Of a stretch of DNA of 64,000 nucleotides, positions 10,935 through 50,646 are shown piece by piece (the stretch's first letter is position 1; each line of letters opens with the position of its first letter). Made by a program: the position numbers and the translations under genes. The DNA lies in the IMG/VR virus record IMGVR_UViG_3300036770_008730, one strand, 5' to 3'. The stretch is from a virus (lineage: Duplodnaviria > Caudoviricetes). The notes below the pieces were generated by a model, which saw nothing but the letters and a program-made list of their open reading frames with translations, was not told the origin of the DNA and made no database searches.

Positions 10935-12980
10935 ATGTTAAGTAGGTTATCTTCTTTTTCTGGTCCTAAGTCTGTTTTATTCAAAATACCTGGTGGGTTT
11001 ACACTTTCTGGATTAATATTGAGATATCTTATATCAGACACTGATTCATATTCGGGAACAACTACGGTAACTGACTTAAAGAGTAATTCGAACGCAACAC
11101 TTAGCGGTGGTCCTACTTTTTCAGGTAATGGATATTTAAATTTTGATGGTGTAAATGATTATTTACTTACAAGTACATCACTTGATCCTGTTTTATCACC
11201 TGTTAATACATCCACTATAATTTCTTATTTTCTTTGGATTTACCCACAGGATAATGGTGTCATAGTTAATGAGTTAGGATCATCGAGTATATTAGCAGGA
11301 TGGCATGATGCACAGATTGAAATGGTTTCGGGAACTCTTAGATTTGCTGTTTGGCCTCACTTAGGAGGTTACATTACATCTTCTGTATTAACTCCGTTAA
11401 ACAATTGGTATTATGTTGGGTTAACATATGATGGCTCGACATTAAGAGCATGGGTAAATTCACAATTAGCAGGAAGTCTTACAATTACAAGACAATCACC
11501 CAATAGTGGTGGTGCTGATTTATTTTATGGAATTGCAGTAGCTGATACTACTAATTTAGGGGATGGCTCATATGCCAAAATGAAATTTGGTGATTTTCAT
11601 GTTTACAACATTGCTTTATCATCCCAACAAATTCTTAATAATTACAATGCTACTAGAAATAATTATATCTTTACAACTGGTATGTTAATCTGGATAGATG
11701 CAAATGATCCTCAAAGTTTTTCAGGCGGTTCAATTAGTGATTTAAGTGGTAATAATTACACACATACTTTAGCATCAGGTGCTACCTCATCTAATGTTTA
11801 TGGATTCAAATCATTTAATTGCACAGCTGTTTCAAATAGCTCTATCAGAGTAAATGGCACAGGACCGACACTTTCTACAACCGGATACACTTATGTGACC
11901 TGGGCAAGAATAAAGTCCGATTCTTCTACATATAGAACTCTTTTTAGAAGTGCTCCTAATGACCATGCTATTTTAGTTGATATAAATACAGATAATTTAG
12001 GATTCTGGGATAATGACTCTGGTGTTTCAGGGTTCAAAGATTCTGGGTATGATGTTACTTCAATCGAGGAAAAATGGGTTCAATATTCTGTTGTTGGTGA
12101 TTCTTCAAGTAGTATATTTTATATAAATGATGTACAAGTTGGTTCTGTTTCTTTTGGTGCAGGTGGTAATAAGCATGATTATTTTGGATCAATTGATGGC
12201 CAACCTTTTGGATATGTTGGAAACATGATGTTATATAATAGAAAGTTAACACAGACTGAGATTAAACAAAATTATGATGCTCTTAAAAATGTTTATGCTA
12301 ATGGTGATTTTGTAAGCAATAATTTGATACTATATTATAATCCGGCTAGTTATTTAAGCTATTCTGGTTCTGGAACGAATGTATCAAACTTATCATCTAA
12401 TTCACTAAACGGCACTTTATCAAATGTTACTTTTGGAAAAACATACTTTACTTTCAATGGATCCAATTCTCAAATTACTATTAATGATAATAGTTTGTTA
12501 GAACCCGGATCTGGCGATTGGACTATGGAGGTTTGGATTAAACCTACATCTCTCTCAGCACCCGGACAAGTAGTTTTGGGTAAGTTTGATCCTGGTGGAC
12601 TTTCAGCTGATATTTCTTATGCTATAAGAATTTCTAGTAGTAATGTTAGAGCTGATTTTAGTAATGGTACAAGCGCAGTAGTTACATCCAATTATACTCT
12701 TACCTTAAATACATGGACACATTTAGTTTATGTATTCAATAATGTTGCAAATAATAATATAATAACATATGTAAATGGTGTCTCTTACAGTACAACAACT
12801 CATAGTTTTGCTAGTATATTAAATACATCAGCTAACCTTTATTTAGGTTCATATAATGGTGGAGAATATTCTCAATATTTTACTGGTCAGATGGGAATAG
12901 TAAGATTATATAATTCTGCTTTAAGTGCCTCTGATGTTTCTAAAAACTTTGAGGCAAATAGATTAATTTACGGTATTTGA
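10935..12980 (+). CDS. Multi-LamG (concanavalin A-like lectin) virion protein, putative receptor-binding
   Basis: Three repeats with LamG hallmarks (LNFDGVNDY; NNWYYVGLTYDGSTLRAWVN; MGIVRLYNSALSASDVSKNF). Preferred ATG 10935. Confidence 0.8.
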   Translation: MLSRLSSFSGPKSVLFKIPGGFTLSGLILRYLISDTDSYSGTTTVTDLKSNSNATLSGGPTFSGNGYLNFDGVNDYLLTSTSLDPVLSPVNTSTIISYFLWIYPQDNGVIVNELGSSSILAGWHDAQIEMVSGTLRFAVWPHLGGYITSSVLTPLNNWYYVGLTYDGSTLRAWVNSQLAGSLTITRQSPNSGGADLFYGIAVADTTNLGDGSYAKMKFGDFHVYNIALSSQQILNNYNATRNNYIFTTGMLIWIDANDPQSFSGGSISDLSGNNYTHTLASGATSSNVYGFKSFNCTAVSNSSIRVNGTGPTLSTTGYTYVTWARIKSDSSTYRTLFRSAPNDHAILVDINTDNLGFWDNDSGVSGFKDSGYDVTSIEEKWVQYSVVGDSSSSIFYINDVQVGSVSFGAGGNKHDYFGSIDGQPFGYVGNMMLYNRKLTQTEIKQNYDALKNVYANGDFVSNNLILYYNPASYLSYSGSGTNVSNLSSNSLNGTLSNVTFGKTYFTFNGSNSQITINDNSLLEPGSGDWTMEVWIKPTSLSAPGQVVLGKFDPGGLSADISYAIRISSSNVRADFSNGTSAVVTSNYTLTLNTWTHLVYVFNNVANNNIITYVNGVSYSTTTHSFASILNTSANLYLGSYNGGEYSQYFTGQMGIVRLYNSALSASDVSKNFEANRLIYGI

Positions 12981-13013
12981 TACATTTAATTAATTTTTAT
13001 TCTTTTTTATTTT

Positions 13014-13022
13014 TAATATATA
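13014..13022 (+). promoter_or_regulatory. Putative phage late promoter TAATATATA
   Basis: Exact motif 24 nt before the micro-ORF ATG at 13047. Confidence 0.5.
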
Positions 13023-13046
13023 GTTTATCAAAAATTATTAACCACT

Positions 13047-13094
13047 ATGAGTAAAATTTGGGTAAGAATTGCCTGGGATGGTACTGCATGGTAA
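13047..13094 (+). CDS. 15-aa micro-ORF MSKIWVRIAWDGTAW
   Basis: ATG13047-TAA13094, read manually; lies between two TAATATATA motifs. Confidence 0.45.
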   Translation: MSKIWVRIAWDGTAW

Positions 13095-13096
13095 TT

Positions 13097-13105
13097 TAAT
13101 ATATA
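13097..13105 (+). promoter_or_regulatory. Putative phage late promoter TAATATATA
   Basis: Exact motif 4 nt before the ATG at 13110. Confidence 0.55.
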
Positions 13106-13109
13106 CACT

Positions 13110-14069
13110 ATGATTAAAAGATATCTTCAGTTTATAAAAGAAGGTCAAATAGAAGAATTCAATTCACTTGGTGAGTGGATTGAATCTTTATATAGTGATG
13201 ATTATATCAAAAATTTAGTTGCTAGGTATACAAAGGAAATCGACCCTACAGTTAGACTGGCTAATGCAATTAACATTTTAGAGGACTTAGATAAAAAAGA
13301 ATTAAAATCTCAAGTAGAATATTATCTAAAGAATGGTATTGAAGAAAAAGAACCTAAATTTTTAATTTCTACTGATTTAGAACCTTTAACAGAATCAGAA
13401 ATATCTGTAGCTGGTAAAGGTATATTTACTTCCTTTTTGAAATGTCTTACAAGCTTAGGACAGAAGGAAAAAGAACCAGATTGGAAAATGTGTCCTGATA
13501 ACTTTTTACTATTCTACTATTTTCCACTTTTAGAATCTAATGTAGTAAAACAAATTTTTACAAGATTCAAATCTCTTTCTTATTATTTAGACTTAATTGA
13601 TTATCAAAAAAATGAAACAAGTTTATATTTTGGTATTAGATGTGATGGTTTATTTGAATATGGTTTGCATTATGAGACTTTCACACCAATAGGTCAATTC
13701 AAATTATCTAAATCAGTTATGAAATGGATATGTCAATTAGAATCTAAATCAGCATCATCTCTTAAAAAACAATTAGTTAATTTAACTTATGGAGATATAA
13801 TAACTTTAGGTTCAATTAAAAATGATATGAAAATTTTTACACCTGGTTATCACGAAAAGAAAATCACACCTTGTTTAAATGATAGAGTTATTAGTTTTGG
13901 TTATTATGGGTGTGGTAAATGGGATAATGGAAGATTAGACGAAGGAGAACTTAGTAATATAAAATCTAATTTTTCAACATTTGCTTTAAGTAGAAAATGG
14001 GGAGATAAGATACTAATAAGTATAAAACCAGAATCTTTCTGGATAAAAATACATATCAAATTGAAATGA
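13110..14069 (+). CDS. Hypothetical protein with capsid-targeting-like leader
   Basis: 319 aa, starts MIKRYLQFIKEGQIEE. Confidence 0.6.
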   Translation: MIKRYLQFIKEGQIEEFNSLGEWIESLYSDDYIKNLVARYTKEIDPTVRLANAINILEDLDKKELKSQVEYYLKNGIEEKEPKFLISTDLEPLTESEISVAGKGIFTSFLKCLTSLGQKEKEPDWKMCPDNFLLFYYFPLLESNVVKQIFTRFKSLSYYLDLIDYQKNETSLYFGIRCDGLFEYGLHYETFTPIGQFKLSKSVMKWICQLESKSASSLKKQLVNLTYGDIITLGSIKNDMKIFTPGYHEKKITPCLNDRVISFGYYGCGKWDNGRLDEGELSNIKSNFSTFALSRKWGDKILISIKPESFWIKIHIKLK

Positions 14070-14392
14070 GACTTATAAAAAAATTTGAAAATTATGCTCA
14101 AGATTTACCAGAGCAACTTCCATATAAAAGAGATGAGGAATCTGTAAATATTTTTCCAAAAGAAGAACTATCTGAAGAAATTCAATATGAGGAAGATGAT
14201 GAATTTGTTATTACTAAAATTGTTGAAAATTTCCCATTTGATGAGGTAAAATCAAGAATTGAAGATGAATCAGAAGATGATAAAGAAACAGTATTGTTAG
14301 ATATGATTGTTTGGTTCAGAGATACCTTTGGTAAAGAAATTAAAAATGAAGATTATATTCTCGATAGATTAAGAGAAGAATATAGTATTTAA
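14066..14392 (+). CDS. Small acidic hypothetical protein with leader MRLIKKFEN
   Basis: 108 aa, E/D-rich, ATGA overlap with the upstream gene. Confidence 0.6.
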   Translation: MRLIKKFENYAQDLPEQLPYKRDEESVNIFPKEELSEEIQYEEDDEFVITKIVENFPFDEVKSRIEDESEDDKETVLLDMIVWFRDTFGKEIKNEDYILDRLREEYSI

Positions 14393-14442
14393 TAAACAAC
14401 TGATGAAAACTTTTCTATAATAAAGAAAAGTTTTTTTGTTTT

Positions 14443-14943
14443 ATGAATAAACCAAGTAAAGAAGATATAATAAACAAATGGTCATCTATTTTAGGACCTA
14501 TGGGTATTACTGGATCTCAATTAGCTAATATATCTCAGTTAGTCGAAAATCAATCAAATCACATTTTAGAAAATCAGTTAGAAAATGAAGAAGCTAGCAT
14601 CGACTTTTCTTCTCTTCTACCAATTGCTATGAAAGTTGCTTCTAAAACAATCTCAAATGAATTAATATTTGCTTCTCAAGAAGAAATTGACCAAATTAAA
14701 AATAAAGTCCAATCTGAAAATCGTGATGGTAAAATTGAATCTATTGTTGAAGGTTCAGAGTTTACTGAAAAGAAATTAGAAGATGATGAAGAGTATAAAA
14801 AACTAATGAAGAAAGGAGTTTCACCTTTATCTGCTCCCTCTGGAGTATTACATTATTTAGATTATACTTATAATGATAATTCAAAAACTAAAACACATAA
14901 GAAAACGAGAAGAGCTGGAAAAAAACATAAGAAAAATGGGTAA
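14443..14943 (+). CDS. Short protein resembling the N-terminal part of a T4 gp23/gp24-type major capsid protein
   Basis: KWSSILG...LVENQ...LLPIAMKVASKTISNELI...GVSPLSAPSGVLHYLDYTY matches gp23-family N-terminal motifs; only 166 aa; basic tail. Confidence 0.6.
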   Translation: MNKPSKEDIINKWSSILGPMGITGSQLANISQLVENQSNHILENQLENEEASIDFSSLLPIAMKVASKTISNELIFASQEEIDQIKNKVQSENRDGKIESIVEGSEFTEKKLEDDEEYKKLMKKGVSPLSAPSGVLHYLDYTYNDNSKTKTHKKTRRAGKKHKKNG

Positions 14944-15118
14944 ATTTGTGAGTCCTGGAGTTTATGTAAAAGAAGTTGATATCTCAACTTGGATAGTCTA
15001 TAAAAATATTCAAAGAAAGAAAAAAATAGCGAAAATACTTGGAATTGATTACTCTCCTAATGTGATTATAACTTCTACACCAAAAGGTGGTCTTGTTAAC
15101 TTTCCTCAAATTTGGTAA
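14936..15118 (+). CDS. 60-aa protein starting with a tail-sheath N-terminal motif
   Basis: Preferred ATG 14936: MGKFVSPGVYVKEVDIST, the typical SPGVYVxExD start of contractile sheath proteins, then QRKKKIAKILG. Confidence 0.6.
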   Translation: MGKFVSPGVYVKEVDISTWIVYKNIQRKKKIAKILGIDYSPNVIITSTPKGGLVNFPQIW

Positions 15119-15150
15119 GAGAATCATGTTGAGTAGATATATACATTGTT

Positions 15151-15483
15151 ATGTACAATGTGTATCTCATATGCTCTGAAATCGAAGGTAAAAATCTTTA
15201 CAAAATTGGATACACTAGAAGAGAAATAGAGAAACGAATAAAAGAATTCAAAACAGGAAACGCTTCTTCTTTTTATATTGTAGATTCATTTCAATCAGAA
15301 TGGGGAACAAAAATCGAAGCGAGATTACACAGAGTTTTCAATCATAAAAAAATAAGTGGTGAATGGTTTGATCTAGATGAAAATGATATAAAAGAGTTTT
15401 CTAAAATTTGTAATTCTCTACACTCTAATTTTAAATTAATATCAACTCAAAATACTTATTATTTAGATAGAGGTGATTTTTAA
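15151..15483 (+). CDS. T5orf172/Mug113 (GIY-YIG-like) nuclease domain protein
   Basis: YKIGYT...EKRIKEFKTGN...EARLHRVF...GEWFDL. Confidence 0.85.
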   Translation: MYNVYLICSEIEGKNLYKIGYTRREIEKRIKEFKTGNASSFYIVDSFQSEWGTKIEARLHRVFNHKKISGEWFDLDENDIKEFSKICNSLHSNFKLISTQNTYYLDRGDF

Positions 15484-16620
15484 TGCCTCATTTATTTTAT
15501 CAATTACCATTTCAGCAGTTATTTGCTTAGTACATTCAAACTGTCTTTCTGTTCCTTTATGTAGGGGACACCAATTCCAATCTCCAGCATCTAATTTGTG
15601 AGTATTAAAGCAACCATTACAAACACTTTCATTAAAAACTCTAAATGTATTTGTTGTTGTTTCACTATATGGTTTACTAAATCCCGAAATTAAAACAACT
15701 GGTAGTCCACAAGACCAAGCTAACCAAGATAAACCAGACCCCAATCCAATAAATAAATCACATGTAGATAAATCATCAATAACTTCTTGTAAAGACCCAC
15801 CTTTGAATTTAGTAGTACCTTTTGGATGAAAGTTACCCATATATCCATCATTTTCTTTTGAATAGATAACAACTTCATATCCTATACTTTTTAAGTAATC
15901 AACTACTCTTTGCCAACCACCTGAATTATTCCAATATTTAGCCTGTGCTGTTGAGTGTAGACCTAATCCCACTTTCTTTTGTTTTTGTATATTTGGTTGT
16001 TTAAGTAGAGGTTTAATTTCAGTATATTCTAGACCAAGTATATCACAGATTGTTTGTTGTAGAGGTAGTAGTTTGAAATCTCTTGGATTTTGAGATGATT
16101 TAAATTGATCATTTTCATAATACCAACCAATTTTATACATCGCATAGATATTTTGAACTACTTGACCAGGATTTACAAATTGAATATTATTGTATTGTTC
16201 AATAAATAAATAATTGTGAAAAGTTGAAACTATAATCTCACAGTTGTGTTTTTTTCTGAACTCTTCAACATACGGAATCCAAGCTAGTGTATCACCAATT
16301 GAATTAGAATCAAATGCAATATAAACTCTTTTATTTTCAAAATTGACATTATAATCTAAAATAATTTCTTTTGATTTAGAGTTATGAATTTTTATATTCC
16401 AATTTACAAAGTATTTGATACCTGATCTTGACCACATGTTTTTTTTCAGTTTAGATTGATAATGCAATTTACCATCATTAAACATTTGTATTGTGTATTC
16501 ATCATCAATATCGCAATCAATTATTTCTACAAAAGCACCATCAACGAAATTGATGGATATTTTAGGTAAAATTACTTTTTTGATTATTTTTTGATTTTTT
16601 GTTAAGTTATCATATATCAT
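15463..16620 (-). CDS. Autotransporter O-heptosyltransferase (Aah/TibC, BAHT family)-like glycosyltransferase
   Basis: SIGDTLAWIPYVEEFRKKH, STAQAKYWN, FIGLGSGLSWLAW, VVLISGFS, and a tetra-Cys motif CNGC-x13-C-x11-C. Confidence 0.85.
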   Translation of the reverse strand: MIYDNLTKNQKIIKKVILPKISINFVDGAFVEIIDCDIDDEYTIQMFNDGKLHYQSKLKKNMWSRSGIKYFVNWNIKIHNSKSKEIILDYNVNFENKRVYIAFDSNSIGDTLAWIPYVEEFRKKHNCEIIVSTFHNYLFIEQYNNIQFVNPGQVVQNIYAMYKIGWYYENDQFKSSQNPRDFKLLPLQQTICDILGLEYTEIKPLLKQPNIQKQKKVGLGLHSTAQAKYWNNSGGWQRVVDYLKSIGYEVVIYSKENDGYMGNFHPKGTTKFKGGSLQEVIDDLSTCDLFIGLGSGLSWLAWSCGLPVVLISGFSKPYSETTTNTFRVFNESVCNGCFNTHKLDAGDWNWCPLHKGTERQFECTKQITAEMVIDKINEALKITSI

Positions 16621-16698
16621 GACTATTTTATTAACTTATAAAAATTTGTTTACTAAACATATTGAAATTTAATAAATATAAAAAACAATAAATTAATT

Positions 16699-16971
16699 AT
16701 GCAATCATTAAAAGAAAGTTTTATCAGAGAGTACATAACACAAATAGATTTCAAAAGAGATAATTGGAAATTATCTAAAATGAAAGAAGATATGAGAAAA
16801 TTCTTGGGCGAAGAACCAGGTATAGAAGTTGTCTATAGAAAAGATGTTATGATTAATGAAACCACTCAAGAGCCGGTTGAGTTTGTTGATGTTGATAAAA
16901 TAGAAATTATCTTTACCGATCTTGATAATAGATTCAAAAAATTGGAATTTCACGTAAATCAAACATTATAA
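16699..16971 (+). CDS. Hypothetical protein
   Basis: 90 aa ORF, TAATAAATA variant motif upstream. Confidence 0.6.
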   Translation: MQSLKESFIREYITQIDFKRDNWKLSKMKEDMRKFLGEEPGIEVVYRKDVMINETTQEPVEFVDVDKIEIIFTDLDNRFKKLEFHVNQTL

Positions 16972-16972
16972 A

Positions 16973-17188
16973 ATGAAGATAGAAAATTATTATTTAAATT
17001 TAGAAAAAGTAAATACACTTACTAAAGAAGATAAGGATTATATTCATAGATACTATCAAGATATGATGCATCATTTTATGGAGGGTAGAACAACTATTGC
17101 TCAATCTTTATTTCTTACTTTGATGAATCATGACTGTCTAATTGATGTTAGAGATAAAAAATTATCAAAAATCTTAGATGAAAGTTGA
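16973..17188 (+). CDS. Hypothetical protein with C-terminal RDKKLSKIL motif
   Basis: 71 aa, tightly packed in an operon. Confidence 0.6.
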   Translation: MKIENYYLNLEKVNTLTKEDKDYIHRYYQDMMHHFMEGRTTIAQSLFLTLMNHDCLIDVRDKKLSKILDES

Positions 17189-17534
17189 TATTTTAGATTA
17201 TTTAGGAACAATTCAGAACGGAGCATTGGTTCTCATTTCAATAGTTTATGAAAATGAGTACTATGAGGGCACGTTCTATTACAATAAAGATAATATTCTT
17301 GCATTAACTGTTGAAGAGAGATTAGAAAAGGTTTTAGGATGTTCTATTGAAGAATGGAGAGATTATAATGAAATTATGATCAGTCTTATAAAAAGAGTTG
17401 TTCCTGTCAATGAGATCGTTTCAAGATTGGATGAGATAGATATTAAAAAATATACTATTGATGCTATAAATAAACAAATAGTTTATGTTGAGAGTGAAGA
17501 AAGTCCACTAAACCCAACTCAATCTGAAATATAA
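17178..17534 (+). CDS. Hypothetical protein
   Basis: 118 aa, overlaps the upstream stop. Confidence 0.6.
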   Translation: MKVDILDYLGTIQNGALVLISIVYENEYYEGTFYYNKDNILALTVEERLEKVLGCSIEEWRDYNEIMISLIKRVVPVNEIVSRLDEIDIKKYTIDAINKQIVYVESEESPLNPTQSEI

Positions 17535-20457: not shown

Positions 20458-20658
20458 ATGGCTTGTCCAAAATGCGATTCTTTAAATGTGAAGCGAAGAT
20501 TTTACGCGCCTGTTTCAAAATATGGTCATTTACCTACACCGCCTGTTGATTTTTGTGATGATTGTGGATTTAAATCACAAGAATCATTTAGTTCTATAAA
20601 CTTCAGACATCAAAGAGATTATAAATTAGAACAAATATTACAAAATGGGGTTCAATAA
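20458..20658 (+). CDS. Small Zn-ribbon protein with C-terminal RDYKLEQIL motif
   Basis: Preferred ATG 20458: CPKC...CDDC. Confidence 0.65.
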   Translation: MACPKCDSLNVKRRFYAPVSKYGHLPTPPVDFCDDCGFKSQESFSSINFRHQRDYKLEQILQNGVQ

Positions 20659-30160: not shown

Positions 30161-30283
30161 ATGAAAGAAATTAAATATCAAAGATTTATTGACAGACTTA
30201 GTACCTCTTTAAGAAAATCTAAAAAAAATAGATTAAGAGTTTTCCAAAGAAAAATTAAAATTATTAGCATTTTCAATTCTTAA
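30161..30283 (+). CDS. 40-aa basic micro-ORF ending in RKIKIISIF
   Basis: Manual translation MKEIKYQRFIDRLSTSLRKSKKNRLRVFQRKIKIISIFNS*; fills an otherwise empty 240-nt gap. Confidence 0.55.
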   Translation: MKEIKYQRFIDRLSTSLRKSKKNRLRVFQRKIKIISIFNS

Positions 30284-32828: not shown

Positions 32829-33941
32829 TTATTTTTTTTTGAACTCTTTTTTATCATTAGAAATATATAAATTGTCAAAGTTATAATACTTATCAAATAT
32901 TTCTCTAATTTTTTTTGGTTTTACTTCATCTAAGATTTCATAAACTGACCAATCTTTTGGATTAATCCATTGATTAACATTTTTATATCTTAAGATTTCT
33001 TCTTTTTGTTTTCTTACACCATAATATTCCTTTACTATATTAAACCTATCTTTAGTTAAGTATTTACCTGGATTATCTAAAACTATTTTAATTGAATCAA
33101 CAACAGCATTAAAGTTTTTATTTGAAGTTTGTGTTGATATAGTATTGATACCTTGATTATTTAGTCTTGATTGGTAACAGTGAACATAATATACCAATCC
33201 TCTTTTCTCACGAATCTCCTGATAAAGAGGTGATTTCAATCCTAAAGAAAGCATTGCATTTATAAAATGAATATAAGCAAAGTCTTCATTAATTACCGGT
33301 GAAAGAATTGAAATAGAGGTCTTATCTTTGAAATCATTATTTAACTCTAATGGAACTTTATGGTCACCATAGGTAGTGTCTTTAACGATTATTCTGTCAG
33401 TAAAATCTAAAGTATTGTTTTTATACTTTTTGTTTTTACTAACATTAATTACTTTAGTAGGTTTTGAATATTGAAGTTCAAAGTAGTTCAAACAATCCAT
33501 AAATTTAAGATTTACTAAATCCTCTTTTAAACCAATAGGATCATAATCGTTAAATAATTTTCTCGAAAGATTTAACATATGTGATTGAGATTGGTCATTA
33601 AAGCAATCCATATATTCTTCTAATACGATGTTTCTTTCATTTTCAAACTGTTCTTTAGTAACATTGAACTGACCAAGTAAGTCCATAAACTCACCTTTCC
33701 ACTTATTTACTTTTTCATCTAATCCTGTTAGATAAAACACTATTTCATTTGATGAAGTGTAGGCATTCCATTCGATACCATCTTTATCAAAATCTTCTTG
33801 AAGATGGTCAAAGTTTTTGCACATAAGATGCTCCATTAAGTGTGATATACCATACCACCCTTTTTTCTCTAAATTAGTCGAGCCTTCATAAACTATGTAA
33901 AAGCCAGATAAGTCTGTTTGAGATTTTAAATTAATGATCAT
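32829..33941 (-). CDS. M16 family (insulinase-like) zinc peptidase
   Basis: GISHLMEHL (HxxEH), NAYTS, ERNIVLEE, LYQEIREKRGLVY. Confidence 0.9.
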   Translation of the reverse strand: MIINLKSQTDLSGFYIVYEGSTNLEKKGWYGISHLMEHLMCKNFDHLQEDFDKDGIEWNAYTSSNEIVFYLTGLDEKVNKWKGEFMDLLGQFNVTKEQFENERNIVLEEYMDCFNDQSQSHMLNLSRKLFNDYDPIGLKEDLVNLKFMDCLNYFELQYSKPTKVINVSKNKKYKNNTLDFTDRIIVKDTTYGDHKVPLELNNDFKDKTSISILSPVINEDFAYIHFINAMLSLGLKSPLYQEIREKRGLVYYVHCYQSRLNNQGINTISTQTSNKNFNAVVDSIKIVLDNPGKYLTKDRFNIVKEYYGVRKQKEEILRYKNVNQWINPKDWSVYEILDEVKPKKIREIFDKYYNFDNLYISNDKKEFKKK

Positions 33942-38695: not shown

Positions 38696-38728
38696 AAACC
38701 CTCAGATTTCTCTGAGGGTTTCTTTTTT
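38696..38728. terminator. Intrinsic terminator between convergent genes
   Basis: AAACCCTCAGA-TTTC-TCTGAGGGTTT with flanking A and T runs. Confidence 0.88.
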
Positions 38729-39806
38729 ATGCCAATGTTAAGAAAATCTTTCTGTTTCCTCTATCAACTGATAAAACCTTAGTTTTAATTTGTTGACCGG
38801 ATTGAAACTTTTTACCAAGTTTCTCCATTTCAGAAGTGTGAATTAATCCGATTGTTTCATCGTCTAATTTCACAAGTGTTCCAAACTGTTTAACATCTTT
38901 TACAACACCATCTAATGTTTGACCATTTTTAATGGTGTCCCAAAGAGTTTCTCTTAAGATTTGAGTAAGGATAATTTTATCCTTAATAATCTCTTTTACA
39001 TAGAATTCGATTCCAAATCCTGGTTTAATGTCACCAAGTTTATCTTGCCAATCAGGGTCGATATTTGCTTTGTGAATCATTCCAGTTAAACAATCGTTGA
39101 ATTCCACGAATACTCCAAAAGGAGTTGTTCCAGTTACAAAGCCACGGTATACATAGTTGTATTCTAATTCTTTAATTGCCGCTGGAATTAAAGATTGTAG
39201 ATACTTTCTACGACTTACAATGTAAGTTCCTTCTTGGTCAGAGAACGATTCGATCATTACTTCGAATGTTTGACCTACGATAGAATTAACATCGTAAAGT
39301 TTGTTAATACCGGCCAATGTGTTTGGCATAAATGCTGGTAGTGTTACACCACCGTGAGAAATTTCAACATCATAACCTGCTGGGTTAACAGATTTAATGA
39401 ATGCTGTTACTGATTGTCCTTCTTCTAAGGATTTCAGATTCTCGTGAGCTCTTGTTTCGTAAAGAGCTGCGATGCTACCTCTGATAAAATAATTATCATG
39501 GTTTACATCAACGATCAAAACATCGATAAAGTCATTAATTTGACTATTTTTAAGATACTTTGATTCAGATAACCTATCGTCAATTCTTACACAATCTTTA
39601 TATCCAGGTACGCTAAAAAGATAATGTCCTGAAAGTTGTCCGCAATATCTTGCTGATACTACTTCACCTTTGACAGGGGATTTGATGACTTCAAGGTCAT
39701 ACAATTTAAGAAGGTCCATGTCTAGTTTTTTAGTTAGACCTTTTTTTCCTACAGCTTCATCAAAGATAGAAGCTAATTCGGGGTTTCCGATTACTGTGTT
39801 TGTCAT
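38727..39806 (-). CDS. rpsA: Ribosomal protein S1-like multi-S1-domain protein
   Basis: About four S1/OB repeats, e.g. GFVTGTTPFGVFVEF...GMIHK and GVVKDVKQFGTLVKL...GLIHTSEM...KVLSVDRGNRKIFLT; 359 aa, shorter than host bS1. Confidence 0.8.
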   Translation of the reverse strand: MTNTVIGNPELASIFDEAVGKKGLTKKLDMDLLKLYDLEVIKSPVKGEVVSARYCGQLSGHYLFSVPGYKDCVRIDDRLSESKYLKNSQINDFIDVLIVDVNHDNYFIRGSIAALYETRAHENLKSLEEGQSVTAFIKSVNPAGYDVEISHGGVTLPAFMPNTLAGINKLYDVNSIVGQTFEVMIESFSDQEGTYIVSRRKYLQSLIPAAIKELEYNYVYRGFVTGTTPFGVFVEFNDCLTGMIHKANIDPDWQDKLGDIKPGFGIEFYVKEIIKDKIILTQILRETLWDTIKNGQTLDGVVKDVKQFGTLVKLDDETIGLIHTSEMEKLGKKFQSGQQIKTKVLSVDRGNRKIFLTLA

Positions 39807-48412: not shown

Positions 48413-50233
48413 ATGATTGAACAACTAAAACAACAAATTATCAAAGCAAATGAAGCTTATCGTATTGGTAAGTCAATTATGTCAGACTCTCAATATGACC
48501 AATTAGTTGAAGAGTTATCTTTATTATCACCAAATGATGAACTTCTAACAAAAGTTGGACATACTCCGTCTGATGAATCTCGTAAAAGTCGTCTTCCAAT
48601 AGAAATGGCTTCTATGAATAAAATAAAATCTATTGATGATGTAAATGATTGGTGTCGACTAAAAGGTATTTCTAAAAATGAATTAGTTGTTATCACTCCT
48701 AAATACGATGGTCTTTCTCTTTGTGTTAATGAGAAAACTGGCGAAGCTTGGACACGTGGTGATGGTACAATAGGTCAAAAGTCTGATTCTCATTATAAAT
48801 TTATCGGAAATCACTTATCTAAAACTTCAAAAGTTCAATTTACTTATGGTGAAGTTATGATGTCTAAAAAGACATTCATTGAAAAATATTCATCTGATTT
48901 TGCTAATCCCAGAAATCTTGTCGCTGGACTTCTCAATTCTAAAGAAATTTCAGAAATACTAAAAGATACTAGCTTTATTAAGTACGGTTCAATCACTGAA
49001 AATAATTTCACAAAAAAAACCGAGTTGTTAGACCTTCTAAATCAAAATCAATCAATTAAAGTTCCTTATCTTGTTTGTAAAATTTCGGACATCACTGAGC
49101 AATTTCTAATTGATGCCTTTAAAGATTTTTCTATCGAATATGAAATTGATGGTCTAATAATTGAAATAAATGACCTCAATCTACAAAATCAATTAGGTAG
49201 AGAAACCTCTTCGAATAATCCTGTTTGGGCAAGAGCATTCAAACATCCTTCTTTTGAACAATCTGCTGAAACCGAAGTTATCGGTATCACTTGGAATATA
49301 TCAAAACAAGGCTTACTTAAACCTACTTTACATATCAAACCTGTTAAACTTGACGGTGTTACTGTTTCTAACGTAACTGGTAATAACGCCCGATTTGTAA
49401 AAGATTTAGGAATTGGTGTAGGAGCCAAAGTTGTAGTAAAGAGAAGTGGAATGGTCATTCCAATTATTGCTGATGTTATTACACCGGTTGAATTCAAAAT
49501 GCCTGATGTTCCGAATATTGATTGGAATGAAAACGGAGTTGAACTTATCACTTTGACCGAAACAGATGAGCAAAAGTTAAAAAAGAATATCTCTTTCTTT
49601 GAGATATTAGAAGCTGACAACGTGTCAGAAGGAGTCATTACCCAATTATGGGATGCCGGATATAAAACTATTAAAGACATTCTAAATCTTAAAACTTCTG
49701 ATTTAGAAAAAATTGACCGTTTTGGAAAGAGAAAGGCACAGATTGTATTTAATTCTATTCAGAAGTCAATTAGTGGTGTTTCTTTATCAAAAGTTCAACA
49801 CGCGACTGGAATCTTTAAAGGATTAGGTAGTAAAAAGTTAGCACTTTTAGAACACTTTACAACTAAACCAACTGTTGAAGAAGTCATGCAAATTGAAGGT
49901 TTTGCAGAAGTATCTGCTAAATCTTATGTAGATAGTTATGATGAATACTTTAATTTTGTTAAAGATTTACCGATTAAAATTGAAGAAAAAATAGAAGTTG
50001 CTAAAACTGGTACGGATCTTGATGGGACACAATTTGTATTCACAGGAGTAAGACGAGCTGACTTAGAAAGTATTATTGAATCTCGTGGTGGTAAAATCGG
50101 AAGTGGTGTTAGTAAGAATACTACACACTTAGTGATGAAGGCTGTTGGTTCTGGTTCTTCAAAAGAAAAGAAGGCTCAGGATTTAGGAGTTAAGATTATT
50201 ACTGTTGATGAATTAGAAAAAATGTTATCATAA
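48413..50233 (+). CDS. ligA: NAD-dependent DNA ligase
   Basis: YDQL, MASMNK, PKYDG, TRGDG, NPRNLVAG, EIDG, OB fold, HhH motifs, C-terminal BRCT (FVFTG...SKNTTHLV). Confidence 0.95.
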   Translation: MIEQLKQQIIKANEAYRIGKSIMSDSQYDQLVEELSLLSPNDELLTKVGHTPSDESRKSRLPIEMASMNKIKSIDDVNDWCRLKGISKNELVVITPKYDGLSLCVNEKTGEAWTRGDGTIGQKSDSHYKFIGNHLSKTSKVQFTYGEVMMSKKTFIEKYSSDFANPRNLVAGLLNSKEISEILKDTSFIKYGSITENNFTKKTELLDLLNQNQSIKVPYLVCKISDITEQFLIDAFKDFSIEYEIDGLIIEINDLNLQNQLGRETSSNNPVWARAFKHPSFEQSAETEVIGITWNISKQGLLKPTLHIKPVKLDGVTVSNVTGNNARFVKDLGIGVGAKVVVKRSGMVIPIIADVITPVEFKMPDVPNIDWNENGVELITLTETDEQKLKKNISFFEILEADNVSEGVITQLWDAGYKTIKDILNLKTSDLEKIDRFGKRKAQIVFNSIQKSISGVSLSKVQHATGIFKGLGSKKLALLEHFTTKPTVEEVMQIEGFAEVSAKSYVDSYDEYFNFVKDLPIKIEEKIEVAKTGTDLDGTQFVFTGVRRADLESIIESRGGKIGSGVSKNTTHLVMKAVGSGSSKEKKAQDLGVKIITVDELEKMLS

Positions 50234-50646
50234 TGGCACTAACTTGTCCTAAATGTGAGAGATTAAATAAGTGCAACTGTAAGAGTTGCAATCCAGATGG
50301 TACTGCAACAGATTTAGTTATCATTCTTGAAGATGAACAACTATATCAATGTTGCTTTTGTAGTCATAAATTTGATGAACAAGATTCATTAGATTTTGAT
50401 TGGGATAGAATTCACCAGAACTTTAAGAAAAGTATTACACCGGAAATGGCTCTTCATTGGAAGATAATGACTAAATTTGGAACAAAAACAGAATTGAAAG
50501 AGTATCAAGGCTCGATTGGTTCTTATGGATTTGAGTCTGCCTTTTTTCAACATTTTGGAATTAGACACAATAATTGTGGTCATAAAGAATTAGAACAGAT
50601 TAAATTGCAATTAGAAAGAGATAAAAAATTAAATAAAATAATATAA
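50233..50646 (+). CDS. Cys-rich Zn-binding protein with C-terminal RDKKLNKII motif
   Basis: CPKC...CNCKSC...CCFC. Confidence 0.65.
   Translation: MALTCPKCERLNKCNCKSCNPDGTATDLVIILEDEQLYQCCFCSHKFDEQDSLDFDWDRIHQNFKKSITPEMALHWKIMTKFGTKTELKEYQGSIGSYGFESAFFQHFGIRHNNCGHKELEQIKLQLERDKKLNKII

What the first reader, a model, noticed from the sequence alone, without database searches (positions are those of the whole stretch)
14443..15118. Tandem miniature capsid-like and tail-sheath-like proteins: possible decoys
Seen: 14443..14943 has gp23-type N-terminal motifs but only 166 aa. The overlapping 14936..15118 starts with the sheath signature FVSPGVYVKEVD and has only 60 aa. Both carry an R-x-x-K-I-x-x-I motif and lie outside the structural operons. 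Established: some anti-phage sensors recognise virion proteins (e.g. CapRel senses a capsid protein, DSR2 a tail tube). Inference: these are retained fragments acting as decoys or inhibitors, assembly regulators, or poisons of co-infecting phages, rather than decay products.
Basis: partly seen in the sequence, partly recalled or inferred. Interest (0 to 1): 0.7.

Follow-up and report, generated by a model that had tools for sequence, protein, structure and literature searches.

The report
Tagged mini-genes copying capsid, sheath, terminase
A roughly 0.6-Mb uncultured phage keeps, under selection, two tiny overlapping genes stitched from short conserved pieces of its own capsid, tail-sheath and DNA-packaging proteins, joined by a short helix that about a tenth of a related phage's proteins also carry; I found no published description of this design, and its purpose is untested.

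Summary
Both ORFs are real, conserved genes, not decay products. ORF A (14443-14943, 166 aa) is a stand-alone paralog of the first ~130 residues of the phage's gp23-type capsid protein. A ~45-residue helical insertion splits it, and it ends in a basic tail. It has over 400 homologs of 145-176 aa, and dN/dS is about 0.3.

ORF B (14936-15118, 60 aa) overlaps ORF A's stop. Only its first ~17 residues are sheath-like. The rest is the R-x-x-K-I-x-x-I helix plus a copy of the large terminase's coupling-motif strand.

The shared motif is a genome-wide tag. In a complete 634-kb relative it ends 94 mostly small ORFs, against 2 for the reversed pattern. Tagged mini-proteins there also carry pieces of capsid protein, scaffold, protease and portal.

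"Retained, not decaying" is supported. Decoy, inhibitor and regulator roles remain untested.

My best guess (0.35) is competitive mimicry acting on the phage's own head, packaging and tail assembly. An immune-decoy role is the main rival (0.25). I found no published description of this design. Earlier unpublished notes of this scan describe similar tagged fragment genes in other giant phages.

The parts
13110..14069 (+). 319-aa gene of unknown function. It is the most persistent upstream neighbour of the mini-capsid gene, and its N-terminus resembles the T4 capsid-targeting tag.
   Evidence: Syntenic in all close loci. A 340-aa homolog sits directly upstream of a distant mini-capsid gene (L070). 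No Pfam or PHROG family.
14066..14392 (+). 108-aa acidic gene of unknown function, between the 319-aa gene and ORF A.
   Evidence: Present as an 81-110 aa gene in relatives. No family match.
14393..14421 (+). Conserved promoter-like element, TAAACA-N17-TATAAT.
   Evidence: Found by the consensus scan. TAAAC and TATAAY are conserved in all 11 aligned loci. The pattern is not clearly enriched genome-wide: 28 hits against 14 for the control.
14405..14435 (+). 12-bp hairpin with a conserved ATAAYAA loop, followed by a T-run, ending 8 nt before the ORF A start codon. It looks like a terminator for the upstream gene that overlaps the -10-like element.
   Evidence: RNAalifold predicts 12 pairs, 4 of them with compensatory changes in distant relatives. 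The element is unique to this locus in the window and in the 634-kb relative.
14443..14943 (+). ORF A, the 166-aa mini-capsid protein.
14443..14571 (+). ORF A residues 1-43. Copy of the capsid-protein propeptide (delta domain), with invariant K12 and near-invariant W13. It ends in I-L-E, a possible L/I-x-E prohead-protease site.
   Evidence: Aligns with T4 gp23 residues 1-62 and with the megaphage capsid-protein N-termini. The protease motif is from PMC9026906. Cleavage here is inference.
14605..14670 (+). ORF A residues 55-76. Copy of the capsid-protein N-arm block (F-S-S-LLPIAMKVASKTISNELI).
   Evidence: The pattern LLP[IVLMT]A.[KR][IV][AS] hits only the capsid protein and the mini-capsid protein in the 634-kb relative.
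14677..14817 (+). ORF A residues 79-125. Helical insertion that is absent from the capsid protein. It carries the tag motif R94-D-G-K-I-E-S-I-V102 (14722-14748).
   Evidence: Nearly invariant within the clade. R94 is invariant down to ~30% identity, and distant members read KRILKLKRVL here. This is the most confident helix in the AlphaFold2 model, 79-103 with pLDDT 81-87.
14818..14880 (+). ORF A residues 126-146. Copy of the capsid block V-x-P-x-S-x-P-x-G-x-L-x-Y-L-D-Y-x-Y.
   Evidence: Aligns with T4 gp23 residues 113-134 and with the LLYIDFQYDD block of the megaphage capsid protein. P132, L136, Y138, D140 and Y143 are conserved across the family.
14881..14940 (+). ORF A residues 147-166. Basic tail (HKKTRRAGKKHKK).
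   Evidence: Invariant in the window's clade. It is replaced by acidic or other tails in distant members and missing in L020 and L023.
14936..15118 (+). ORF B, a 60-aa mosaic mini-protein. Its start overlaps the ORF A stop by 8 nt.
   Evidence: The overlap is 4-26 nt in relatives.
14939..14986 (+). ORF B residues 2-17. Block resembling the sheath N-terminal strand (GKFVSPGVYVKEVDIS).
   Evidence: Aligns with residues 5-21 of the 1,284-1,298 aa sheath of relatives. The pattern is unique to the sheath N-terminus in the relative. P7 and G8 are invariant. Modelled as a beta-hairpin, residues 3-11.
15014..15040 (+). ORF B residues 27-35. Tag helix (RKKKIAKIL).
   Evidence: R27, K30, I31 and I34 are invariant. 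Modelled as a helix, residues 27-35. It matches the genome-wide tag.
15059..15115 (+). ORF B residues 42-60. Copy of the large-terminase ATPase coupling-motif strand (NVIITSTPKGGLVNFPQIW).
   Evidence: The top three PDB hits of the family profile are all T4 gp17, at its SKIIITTTPNGLNHFYDIW strand, E 0.08-0.15. The relatives' own terminase reads KIIITSTPNGMNLF, and a 9-residue string is identical with the L017 ortholog. The pattern is unique to the terminase in the relative. T46, T48, G52, Q58, I59 and W60 are invariant.
15151..15483 (+). 110-aa T5orf172/MUG113 (GIY-YIG-related) gene, the conserved downstream neighbour.
   Evidence: Pfam PF13455 E 1.2e-19 and PF10544 E 9.4e-13. Syntenic in 10 of 11 loci. 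Single copy in the 634-kb relative.
16973..17188 (+). 71-aa ORF ending in the tag (RDKKLSKILDES). A member of the same tagged small-protein set.
   Evidence: Orthologs in relatives end in RDEKIDQILS and similar tails.

Best explanation
ORF A and ORF B are two probably translationally coupled mini-genes kept by purifying selection. They are built on one plan: short conserved blocks copied from the phage's own morphogenesis proteins, joined by a shared amphipathic helix with the motif R-x-x-K-[IL]-x-x-[IL]-[LIFV].

- ORF A is the capsid-protein propeptide, N-arm and first E-loop strand. The tag-bearing insertion splits these blocks, and a basic tail follows.
- ORF B is the sheath N-terminal strand, the tag, and the coupling-motif strand of the large terminase.
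- Both belong to a set of roughly 90-100 tagged, mostly small proteins per genome. At least ten of these carry blocks of capsid protein, scaffold, prohead protease, portal, sheath or terminase.

Proposed mechanism (inferred, not shown): they work like microProteins. Each block competes with, or docks beside, the same segment of the full-length protein while that protein is unfolded or assembling. The propeptide and N-arm would act on scaffold and neighbouring capsid subunits. The sheath N-strand would act on the strand-acceptor site of sheath subunits. The terminase core strand would act on nascent terminase. The common tag would hand all of them to one handler or place, such as a site of assembly, turnover or sorting.

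The net effect would be to modulate, time or localise the phage's own head, packaging and tail assembly.
For: Shown by tool results:
- Real ORFs with overlapping stop and start.
- Synteny [319 aa][~100 aa][A][B][T5orf172] in relatives at 40-98% identity.
- Large families of constant length: 411 and 75 proteins, and 199 clusters at 50% identity for ORF A.
- dN/dS below 1 in every pair.
- Invariant residues in every module, including the tag.
- Block identities as listed under parts.
- Each block pattern hits exactly one parent protein in a 634-kb relative.
- The tag ends 94 ORFs against 2 for the reversed pattern. Codons at its fixed positions follow genome-wide synonymous usage, so selection acts on the protein.
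- With the tag removed, tagged minis hit the five core morphogenesis proteins 5 times in 17 hits at E<=0.1, although those proteins hold only 2.6% of residues. Reversed controls scored 0 of 12.

Points that favour a self-directed role:
- One tagged mini copies three repeats of the phage-specific scaffold, E 7.6e-15. That is a self-association module, not a conserved pattern.
- ORF A keeps the propeptide with invariant K12 and near-invariant W13, and an I-x-E site where the capsid protein has one.
- All identified parents are morphogenesis proteins.
- In T4, small prohead-core proteins (gp67, gp68) are thought to help determine head size (PMC9026906).
Against: - No binding, location or timing data exist.
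- The mini-genes do not track their parents. Capsid-protein N-termini are almost invariant across clades, while ORF A orthologs fall to ~40% identity.
- The terminase block is a strand from the ATPase core (inferred from the T4 gp17 alignment), not an interface. It could bind the real enzyme only during folding.
- Joining a sheath strand and a terminase strand in one 60-aa peptide has no obvious assembly logic.
- ORF B's second block differs between clades, which looks more like a fast-changing accessory cassette.
- ORF A lacks the TATATATA motif seen ~30 nt upstream of the capsid and sheath genes of relatives.
- Most tagged proteins show no recognisable block.
Confidence: 0.35

Rival explanations
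1. Immune decoys. The blocks are linear epitopes of the core phage proteome. The mini-proteins soak up or antagonise host defence sensors that read such segments in nascent or unfolded phage proteins, and the tag supplies a common fate for the bound sensor.
For: - The blocks are among the most conserved linear segments of their parents.
- ORF A's blocks correspond to the region of T4 gp23 whose 29-residue Gol peptide activates the Lit protease. The same source describes that region as the most conserved part of gp23 (PMC3014915; alignment).
- Lit and CapRel are described as sensing the capsid protein through short motifs (10.64898/2026.01.04.697583).
- The defence protein Upx is modelled as binding unfolded core beta-strands of the terminase ATPase by beta-augmentation (PMC13601566). 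ORF B carries a terminase ATPase strand with the coupling-motif threonines invariant.
- A multi-epitope mosaic (sheath plus terminase) makes sense for a decoy.
- The minis evolve faster than their parents and change block content between clades.
Against: - No published sensor of the sheath N-terminus or of scaffold repeats was found (one search lists tail sheath only as a possible future target).
- Most characterised sensors wrap whole folds, which 13-20 residue blocks cannot mimic.
- A decoy that carries the trigger could itself fire the sensor.
- The scaffold-repeat mini is hard to explain as a conserved pattern.
- Early expression is not shown.
- The host and its defences are unknown.
Confidence: 0.25
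2. Prohead-addressed cargo or core component. ORF A uses the capsid propeptide to enter the prohead on the scaffold, like T4 internal or core proteins. The prohead protease then cuts it, leaving a basic DNA-binding peptide. ORF B and the tag would have an unrelated role.
For: - The propeptide is retained with invariant K12 and near-invariant W13 and an I-L-E site.
- The relatives encode a T4-type prohead protease fused to the scaffold (phrog_207).
- T4 gp21 cuts after L/I-x-E and chops gp67 and gp68 into fragments (PMC9026906).
- The basic tail is invariant within the clade.
- Neighbouring genes start with T4-CTS-like peptides (earlier notes).
Against: - The basic tail is not conserved across the family and is missing in L020 and L023.
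- The I-x-E sites inside the insertion are not conserved.
- ORF A itself lacks the CTS-like N-terminus.
- This reading does not explain ORF B or the tag.
Confidence: 0.12
3. Weapons against co-infecting or satellite elements. The fragments poison the assembly or folding of rival phages' capsid, sheath and terminase proteins. The mechanism would resemble engineered peptides that carry a target's own aggregation-prone strand.
For: - The blocks are hydrophobic beta-strand segments flanked by charged residues.
- ORF B's terminase block ends F-x-x-I-W, as T4 gp17 does, and not L-F-H-[KR]-L-L as the relatives' own terminase does.
Against: - The blocks are still close to the phage's own proteins, so self-poisoning would be expected.
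- There is no evidence of rivals, and nothing was tested.
- The comparison with engineered peptides rests on my own knowledge.
Confidence: 0.08
4. Functionless debris. The pieces of core genes were dragged along by the neighbouring T5orf172 (GIY-YIG-type) mobile endonuclease or by illegitimate recombination, and are merely still open.
For: - A T5orf172/MUG113 gene lies 33 nt downstream in the window and at about the same spacing in almost all relatives.
- From general knowledge, homing endonucleases target conserved blocks of essential genes.
Against: - dN/dS is below 1.
- Gene length is constant in hundreds of sequences.
- There are invariant residues in every module.
- T5orf172 is single-copy in the 634-kb relative, and the other fragment genes are not next to endonucleases.
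- The terminase block and the terminase gene share only 30-32 of 60 nucleotides, so there has been no recent DNA transfer.
Confidence: 0.04

Closest known systems
Eukaryotic microProteins (for example Id proteins and LITTLE ZIPPER; concept recalled from general knowledge)
   Same: They are small proteins derived from an interaction segment of a larger multimeric protein and kept by selection. Their presumed action is to form non-productive or redirecting complexes with the parent or its partners.
   Different: Here the carriers are phage genes. The fragments are 13-60 residue blocks, some from buried strands. Blocks from unrelated parents are joined in one peptide. All of them share a separate tag helix. 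No dominant-negative activity has been shown.
T4 prohead-core and internal proteins (gp67, gp68, IPI-III) with capsid-targeting sequences and gp21 L/I-x-E processing (PMC9026906)
   Same: They are small proteins of a T4-type head system. ORF A keeps the capsid propeptide, which is removed by the prohead protease in T4, and has an I-L-E site.
   Different: ORF A is homologous to the capsid protein itself, not to gp67, gp68 or the internal proteins. It lacks the N-terminal CTS-like peptide and lies far from the head module. ORF B has no head-related part except a terminase strand.
Gol peptide of T4 gp23 and the Lit/EF-Tu exclusion system (PMC3014915)
   Same: ORF A's N-arm and following strand align with T4 gp23 residues 113-134 and the segment before them. 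That is the most conserved part of gp23 and includes the Gol-equivalent region. The precedent shows that a short linear capsid peptide can be a specific ligand.
   Different: Gol is part of the full capsid protein, not a separate gene. In ORF A the region is split by a 45-residue insertion. No Lit-like protease or EF-Tu binding has been examined.
T4 vs.8, a stand-alone homolog of the terminase ATPase domain that is toxic with EcAvs2 (PMC13601566)
   Same: It is a phage-encoded, separately expressed piece of the large terminase.
   Different: vs.8 is a whole folded ATPase-like domain with Walker motifs. ORF B holds only the 19-residue coupling-motif strand, fused to a sheath strand and the tag.
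Free-standing homing-endonuclease loci of T4-type phages (Seg and Mob genes; SegB paper PMC13096335)
   Same: A GIY-YIG-related gene sits next to the fragments.
   Different: The endonuclease-like gene is single-copy and syntenic. The fragments are under purifying selection and show no DNA-level identity to their parent genes.

Membership tests
gp23-type major capsid protein (Pfam PF07068) | Complete HK97-type shell subunit with P and A domains (about 450-580 aa) that scores above the Pfam cut-off | tested here: not met
   ORF A is 166 aa and has no Pfam hit at E<=1. The full capsid proteins of relatives are 560-583 aa and score 89-96 bits.
gp23-type major capsid protein (Pfam PF07068) | N-terminal propeptide, N-arm and first E-loop strand motifs | tested here: met
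   PHROG_138 E 4.9e-4. BLASTP to the relatives' capsid proteins up to E 2e-21. Collinear match to T4 gp23. Unique pattern hits.
Contractile tail sheath (Pfam PF04984 and relatives) | Sheath core domains | tested here: not met
   ORF B is 60 aa with no Pfam hit. The relatives' real sheath is 1,284-1,298 aa.
Contractile tail sheath (Pfam PF04984 and relatives) | N-terminal P-G-[IV]-[FY]-[IV]-x-E-x-D strand at the extreme N-terminus | tested here: met
   ORF B residues 7-15. The pattern is unique to the sheath N-terminus in the 634-kb relative. The local alignment is weak on its own, E 0.58.
Large terminase, ATPase domain | [quoted passage not shown] | tested here: not met
   There is no room for them in 60 aa. 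Only profile positions 40-58 align.
Large terminase, ATPase domain | Coupling-motif strand I-I-T-[ST]-T-P-x-G ... F-x-x-I-W | tested here: met
   The top three PDB hits are T4 gp17. The relatives' own terminase carries the same strand. The pattern is unique.
Genome-wide tagged small proteins of this phage group (defined here and in earlier scan notes) | R-[DEKN]-x-[KR]-[IL]-x-x-[IL]-[LIFV] helix, normally within 12 residues of the C-terminus | tested here: met
   Both ORFs carry the motif, but internally. In the relative, 94 of 110 hits are C-terminal against 2 of 12 for the reversed pattern. The motif is modelled as a helix in both ORFs.
T4 capsid-targeted internal or core proteins | N-terminal CTS-type peptide, removal at L/I-x-E, and presence in proheads or virions | tested here: inconclusive
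   ORF A has no CTS-like N-terminus. It has I-L-E at residues 41-43, matching I-N-E in the capsid proteins. Virion presence is not testable here.
microProtein-type competitive mimics | Small, homologous to part of a larger self-associating protein, and forming complexes with it or its partners | not testable with these tools
   The size and homology criteria are met. Complex formation is unknown.
Phage anti-defence decoys | Binds and neutralises a host immune sensor | not testable with these tools
   The host and its sensors are unknown. Only literature precedents for sensing of linear or unfolded epitopes are available.
Decaying gene fragments or endonuclease-dragged remnants | Neutral evolution, frameshifts or stops in relatives, and DNA-level identity to the parent gene | tested here: not met
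   dN/dS is below 1. ORF A is intact in all 11 loci and ORF B in 9. Nucleotide identity to the terminase gene is 30-32 of 60.

The most novel reading that the evidence does not exclude
These giant phages encode a modular library of tagged mini-proteins. Each displays one or two of the most conserved linear segments of the core virion and packaging proteins: the capsid Gol-equivalent region, the sheath N-strand, the terminase ATPase strand, and portal, protease and scaffold pieces. The library would serve as multi-epitope decoys against host sensors that read nascent or unfolded phage proteins. The shared R-x-x-K-I-x-x-I-L helix would direct the captured sensors to a common fate.
Probability: 0.25. 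Interest if true: 0.92.

Novelty: categorically new. Interest (0 to 1): 0.76.

Why it matters
If the design is functional, as the selection data indicate, it shows that phages can turn short pieces of their own essential proteins into a family of small regulators or mimics that share one address-like helix. That would be a natural counterpart of microProteins and of engineered interfering peptides.

It would help explain what part of the hundreds of small unknown genes in huge phages do. It also gives concrete peptides to test against capsid, sheath and terminase assembly, and against bacterial sensors of capsid and terminase proteins.

The C-terminal tag on about a tenth of the predicted ORFs of at least 40 codons in a related genome is a separate, directly testable sorting or handling signal.

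Tried and rejected
- **No whole genome is held for the window**. I therefore assembled the complete 634,780-bp relative LR745206 from 32 fetched pieces for genome-wide counts.
- **Complex prediction of ORF A with ORF B:** no verdict, score 0.00. This is not evidence either way.
- **RNA sequencing runs for 12500-17500:** none was listed.
- **ESM Atlas look-ups** for ORF A and the 319-aa neighbour: no usable hit.
- **AlphaFold2 monomers** were of low confidence (pLDDT 63.7 and 65.3). I ran no fold search.
- **The first single-sequence scan of viral contigs** found nothing. The alignment-based scan found 7 loci.
- **A programmed frameshift fusing A to B** was considered and rejected. The overlap varies from 4 to 26 nt and no slippery site is conserved. 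The A-run is absent where the basic tail is absent, and gene callers split the two.
- **My first alignment of ORF B's C-terminal half** to sheath residues 25-48 was replaced by the much better terminase match.
- **The tag as a DNA-level signal** (promoter or terminator inside gene ends) was rejected. Arg, Lys, Ile and Leu codons at fixed positions follow genome-wide synonymous usage.
- **The tag as a clamp-binding motif, a MinD-like membrane helix or a ClpX degron:** these are only resemblances recalled from memory. The relative's large replication proteins do not end in the tag. I left them as ideas.
- **The promoter-like element as a general promoter class:** not clearly enriched.
- **The hairpin as a general element:** it is unique to this locus.
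- **Pfam on ten larger tagged proteins:** no hits.
- **In-window paralogs of ORF A or ORF B:** none.
- **Literature searches** for phage microProteins, truncated capsid paralogs or capsid decoys found no description of such genes.
Full report
**Context**

The window has 30% G+C. Around the finding it is 64-72% identical at the DNA level, over the aligned parts, to five phage records. Four are uncultured phage assemblies and one is a Microcystis phage that matches only the neighbouring glycosyltransferase gene. The two records that match across the locus are LR756502.1 (642,428 bp) and LR745206.1 (634,780 bp). These sizes match the largest genomes described by Al-Shayeb et al. 2020, which fall in their Mahaphage clade and were predicted to infect Bacteroidetes (PMC7162821). 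No whole genome is held for the window. I therefore used these two records, seven IMG/VR contigs and several metagenome contigs as comparators.

**The two ORFs**

ORF A (14443..14943, 166 aa) and ORF B (14936..15118, 60 aa) are open frames on the + strand. ORF B is in the +1 frame, and its ATG overlaps the ORF A stop (ATGGGTAA).

The gene order is [319 aa][81-110 aa acidic][ORF A][ORF B, overlapping by 4-26 nt][T5orf172/MUG113, ~110 aa]. It recurs in both megaphage records and in contigs of 11-817 kb.

- ORF A has 411 database homologs of 145-176 aa, up to 98% identical. It has 199 representatives among clusters at 50% identity.
- ORF B has 75 homologs, mostly 58-62 aa.
- Pairwise Nei-Gojobori dN/dS, leaving out the overlap, is 0.11-0.64 for ORF A and 0.24-0.81 for ORF B.
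- ORF A is intact in all 11 loci examined. ORF B is intact in 9, truncated in L021 and degenerate in LR745206.

They are genes under selection, not decay products.

**What ORF A is**

PHROG_138 (major head protein) matches residues 6-74 to profile positions 3-76, E 4.9e-4. Pfam's Gp23 model does not match. The related megaphages have a normal gp23-family capsid protein of 560-583 aa about 90 kb away.

ORF A orthologs align with the first ~130 residues of that capsid protein. E is 2e-21 for LR745206's copy and 8e-5 for the window's copy, in a small database. A profile of the ORF A family puts T4 gp23 first in the PDB. It matches in two collinear pieces, 1-59 to gp23 1-62 and 129-150 to gp23 113-134. 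E is only 0.29.

The shared elements are three:

- the propeptide helix region, with invariant K12 and near-invariant W13;
- the N-arm block LLPIAMKVA..TI;
- the strand P-x-G-x-L-F-Y-L-D-Y-x-Y.

In T4 the last two lie in the most conserved part of gp23. That part contains the 29-residue Gol peptide, which activates the Lit protease (PMC3014915).

ORF A differs from the capsid protein in three ways. It lacks the Gly/Ala-rich loop. It has a ~45-residue insertion that is nearly invariant within the clade. It also has a tail that is basic in the window's clade and different or absent elsewhere. AlphaFold2 gives a low-confidence, mostly helical model. The best-defined helix (79-103) is the insertion.

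**What ORF B is**

The relatives' sheath is 1,284-1,298 aa and begins M-A-[VI]-Q-I-G-K-Y-K-R-P-G-I-F-I-E-E-F-D-Q-S. ORF B residues 2-17 align with that N-terminus.

The local alignment is weak on its own, E 0.58. However, a pattern written from the variation inside the ORF B family hits exactly one place in the six-frame translation of the 634-kb relative. That place is the sheath N-terminus. The reversed pattern hits none.

The rest of ORF B is not sheath. The family profile's three best PDB hits are all T4 gp17. They align the ORF B consensus PNVIITSTPKGPTNFPQIW with gp17 SKIIITTTPNGLNHFYDIW, the ATPase coupling-motif strand, at E 0.08-0.15. The relatives' own terminase reads KIIITSTPNGMNLF, and nine consecutive residues are identical with one ORF B ortholog. 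The corresponding pattern is again unique to the terminase.

At the DNA level the block and the terminase gene share only 30-32 of 60 bases. The likeness is therefore kept at the protein level and does not reflect recent transfer.

Between the two blocks lies R-K-K-K-I-A-K-I-L, modelled as a helix. Invariant residues fall in all three modules: P7 and G8; R27, K30, I31 and I34; and T46, T48, G52, Q58, I59 and W60.

In LR756502 and LR745206 the second block is replaced by other sequence. The design is therefore modular.

**The shared motif is a genome-wide tag**

In the complete relative, the expression R[DEKRNQSG].[KR][ILS]..[IL][LIFV] hits 110 ATG-started ORFs of at least 40 aa.

- 94 hits lie within 12 residues of the C-terminus. 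Median ORF length is 98 aa.
- The reversed expression hits 12 ORFs, 2 of them C-terminal.
- The consensus is R-D-x-K-I-N-x-I-L followed by 0-9 residues.
- Codons at the fixed positions follow the genome's synonymous usage. For Arg the counts are AGA 67, AGG 15 and CGN 12 of 94. Selection therefore acts on the peptide, not on a DNA signal.

In the window the motif occurs six times against none reversed. It is C-terminal in four ORFs and internal only in ORF A and ORF B. Distant ORF A relatives read KRILKLKRVL at the same place. One distant locus is followed by a row of small genes that end in the tag.

**A wider set of fragment genes**

Weak Pfam Gp23 hits elsewhere in the relatives proved to be small tagged ORFs. 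Each carries a different capsid-protein piece.

I stripped the tag from 88 tagged minis and compared them with the 459 large ORFs of the relative.

| Query set | Hits at E<=0.1 | Hits to the five core morphogenesis proteins |
|---|---|---|
| Tagged minis | 17 | 5 |
| Reversed controls | 12 | 0 |

The five core proteins are capsid protein, portal, protease-scaffold, terminase and sheath. Together they hold only 2.6% of the residues.

The hits include a mini-scaffold made of three scaffold repeats (E 7.6e-15), a capsid-protein block with 11 of 13 residues identical, and portal and protease blocks. The identities of portal, protease and terminase come from PHROGs.

ORF A and ORF B are thus the local members of a system of tagged mini-proteins built from morphogenesis-protein blocks. 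Earlier notes of this scan, which are AI notes and not independent evidence, describe the same motif in an overlapping window and similar tagged fragment genes in other giant phages.

**Regulatory surroundings**

Immediately upstream of ORF A lies a 12-bp hairpin with a conserved ATAAYAA loop and a T-run. Four of its pairs show compensatory changes in distant relatives. It overlaps a conserved TAAACA-N17-TATAAY element. The hairpin is unique to this locus.

The capsid and sheath genes of relatives instead carry TATATATA about 30 nt before the ATG. Expression class could not be settled. No RNA run was listed.

The T5orf172 gene is single-copy in the relative. The other fragment genes are not next to endonuclease genes. 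This argues against simple dragging by a mobile endonuclease.

**Mechanism**

What is shown is the composition, the conservation and the selection. How the proteins work is inferred.

The design is conserved linear blocks of self-associating proteins plus one shared helix. It points to competitive mimicry with a common handler.

I rank a self-directed role first (0.35): modulating, timing or localising head, packaging and tail assembly. My reasons are these:

- Every identified parent is a morphogenesis protein.
- The parents include the phage-specific scaffold repeats.
- ORF A keeps the scaffold-facing propeptide.

The immune-decoy reading is second (0.25). It has real precedents. Lit and CapRel read short capsid motifs. 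Upx is modelled as threading unfolded terminase ATPase strands. This reading best explains why a sheath strand and a buried terminase strand sit in one peptide, and why the minis evolve faster than their parents.

The remaining readings are prohead cargo (0.12), anti-rival poison (0.08) and debris (0.04).

**Novelty**

Full-text searches found no description of phage genes of this kind. The nearest published items differ in composition, in the mosaic joining of blocks and in the shared tag. They are eukaryotic microProteins, T4 gp67, gp68 and the internal proteins, the Gol peptide, and T4 vs.8.

Noticed in passing
LR745206.1, whole record (loci L026-L057); window 16973-17188, 20458-20655, 30161-30280, 50233-50646: A C-terminal tag, R-D-x-K-[IL]-x-x-[IL]-L, ends 94 mostly small ORFs in the 634-kb relative, against 2 for the reversed pattern. 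Tagged ORFs are concentrated near both ends of the record. Four window ORFs end in the tag. Codon usage shows selection at the protein level. The tag's function is unknown.
   Followed up: partly
LR745206.1: 255010-255237(-), 255215-255367(-), 222206-222391(+), 440173-440361(+), 460438-region(-), 598978-region(+), 268830-region(+), 189488-189649(+), 482039-482179(+): Other tagged mini-ORFs carry blocks from the capsid protein (C-terminal strands, spine helix, residues 203-215), scaffold repeats (E 7.6e-15), the portal, the prohead protease, and a second sheath-N-terminus-like peptide (ITPGIWGYPDDFS).
   Followed up: partly
window 14405-14435 and 14393-14421: A hairpin specific to this locus, with covarying pairs and a conserved ATAAYAA loop, overlaps a conserved TAAACA-N17-TATAAY element. 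It ends 8 nt before the ORF A start codon. It could be a terminator, a promoter or a translational operator.
   Followed up: partly
window 13110-14069 and 14066-14392; also many ORFs in L001, L002 and LR745206: Many unrelated proteins start with M-[KR]-[YIL]-[LI]-[KR]-x-[FY]-x-[ENS]-type peptides, such as MKYLRKYNE, MRLIKKFEN and MIKRYLQFIKE. Earlier scan notes compare these with the T4 capsid-targeting sequence. The two genes upstream of ORF A carry such starts.
   Followed up: no
L003 2-1156 and L004 3-1160; LR745206 198546-200669: In the relative, the prohead protease (phrog_207) is fused to a long acidic scaffold-like region made of tandem S-Y-S-E-Y-[IL]-A-E-N-[LV]-D-K-N-I repeats. The fused gene lies directly upstream of the capsid gene.
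   Followed up: no
L003/L004 (capsid genes) and L015/L016 (sheath genes): A TATATATA[GT] motif lies about 30 nt upstream of the start codons of the capsid and sheath genes in both megaphage records. It is a candidate late-promoter element.
   Followed up: no
P0345 (ENA contig, 1,843 bp): In one metagenome contig an ORF B copy is read in frame after the C-terminal part of a Y-family polymerase (PF00817) ORF, giving a 203-aa product. In that phage ORF B therefore sits in a different gene context.
   Followed up: no
L067/L068 (ENA contigs): A distant mini-capsid gene (P0189) lies next to an IS605 OrfB/TnpB-type gene.
   Followed up: no
L001 5056-5517 and LR745206 599388-599597: Another short peptide, N-K-K-W-W-Q-F-W-K, recurs at or near the ends of unrelated small ORFs in the two megaphage records. 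It may be a further shared tag.
   Followed up: no
window 38727-39806(-), 32829-33941(-), 48413-50233(+): The window also encodes an S1-domain protein, an M16-family peptidase-like protein and an NAD-dependent DNA ligase.
   Followed up: no
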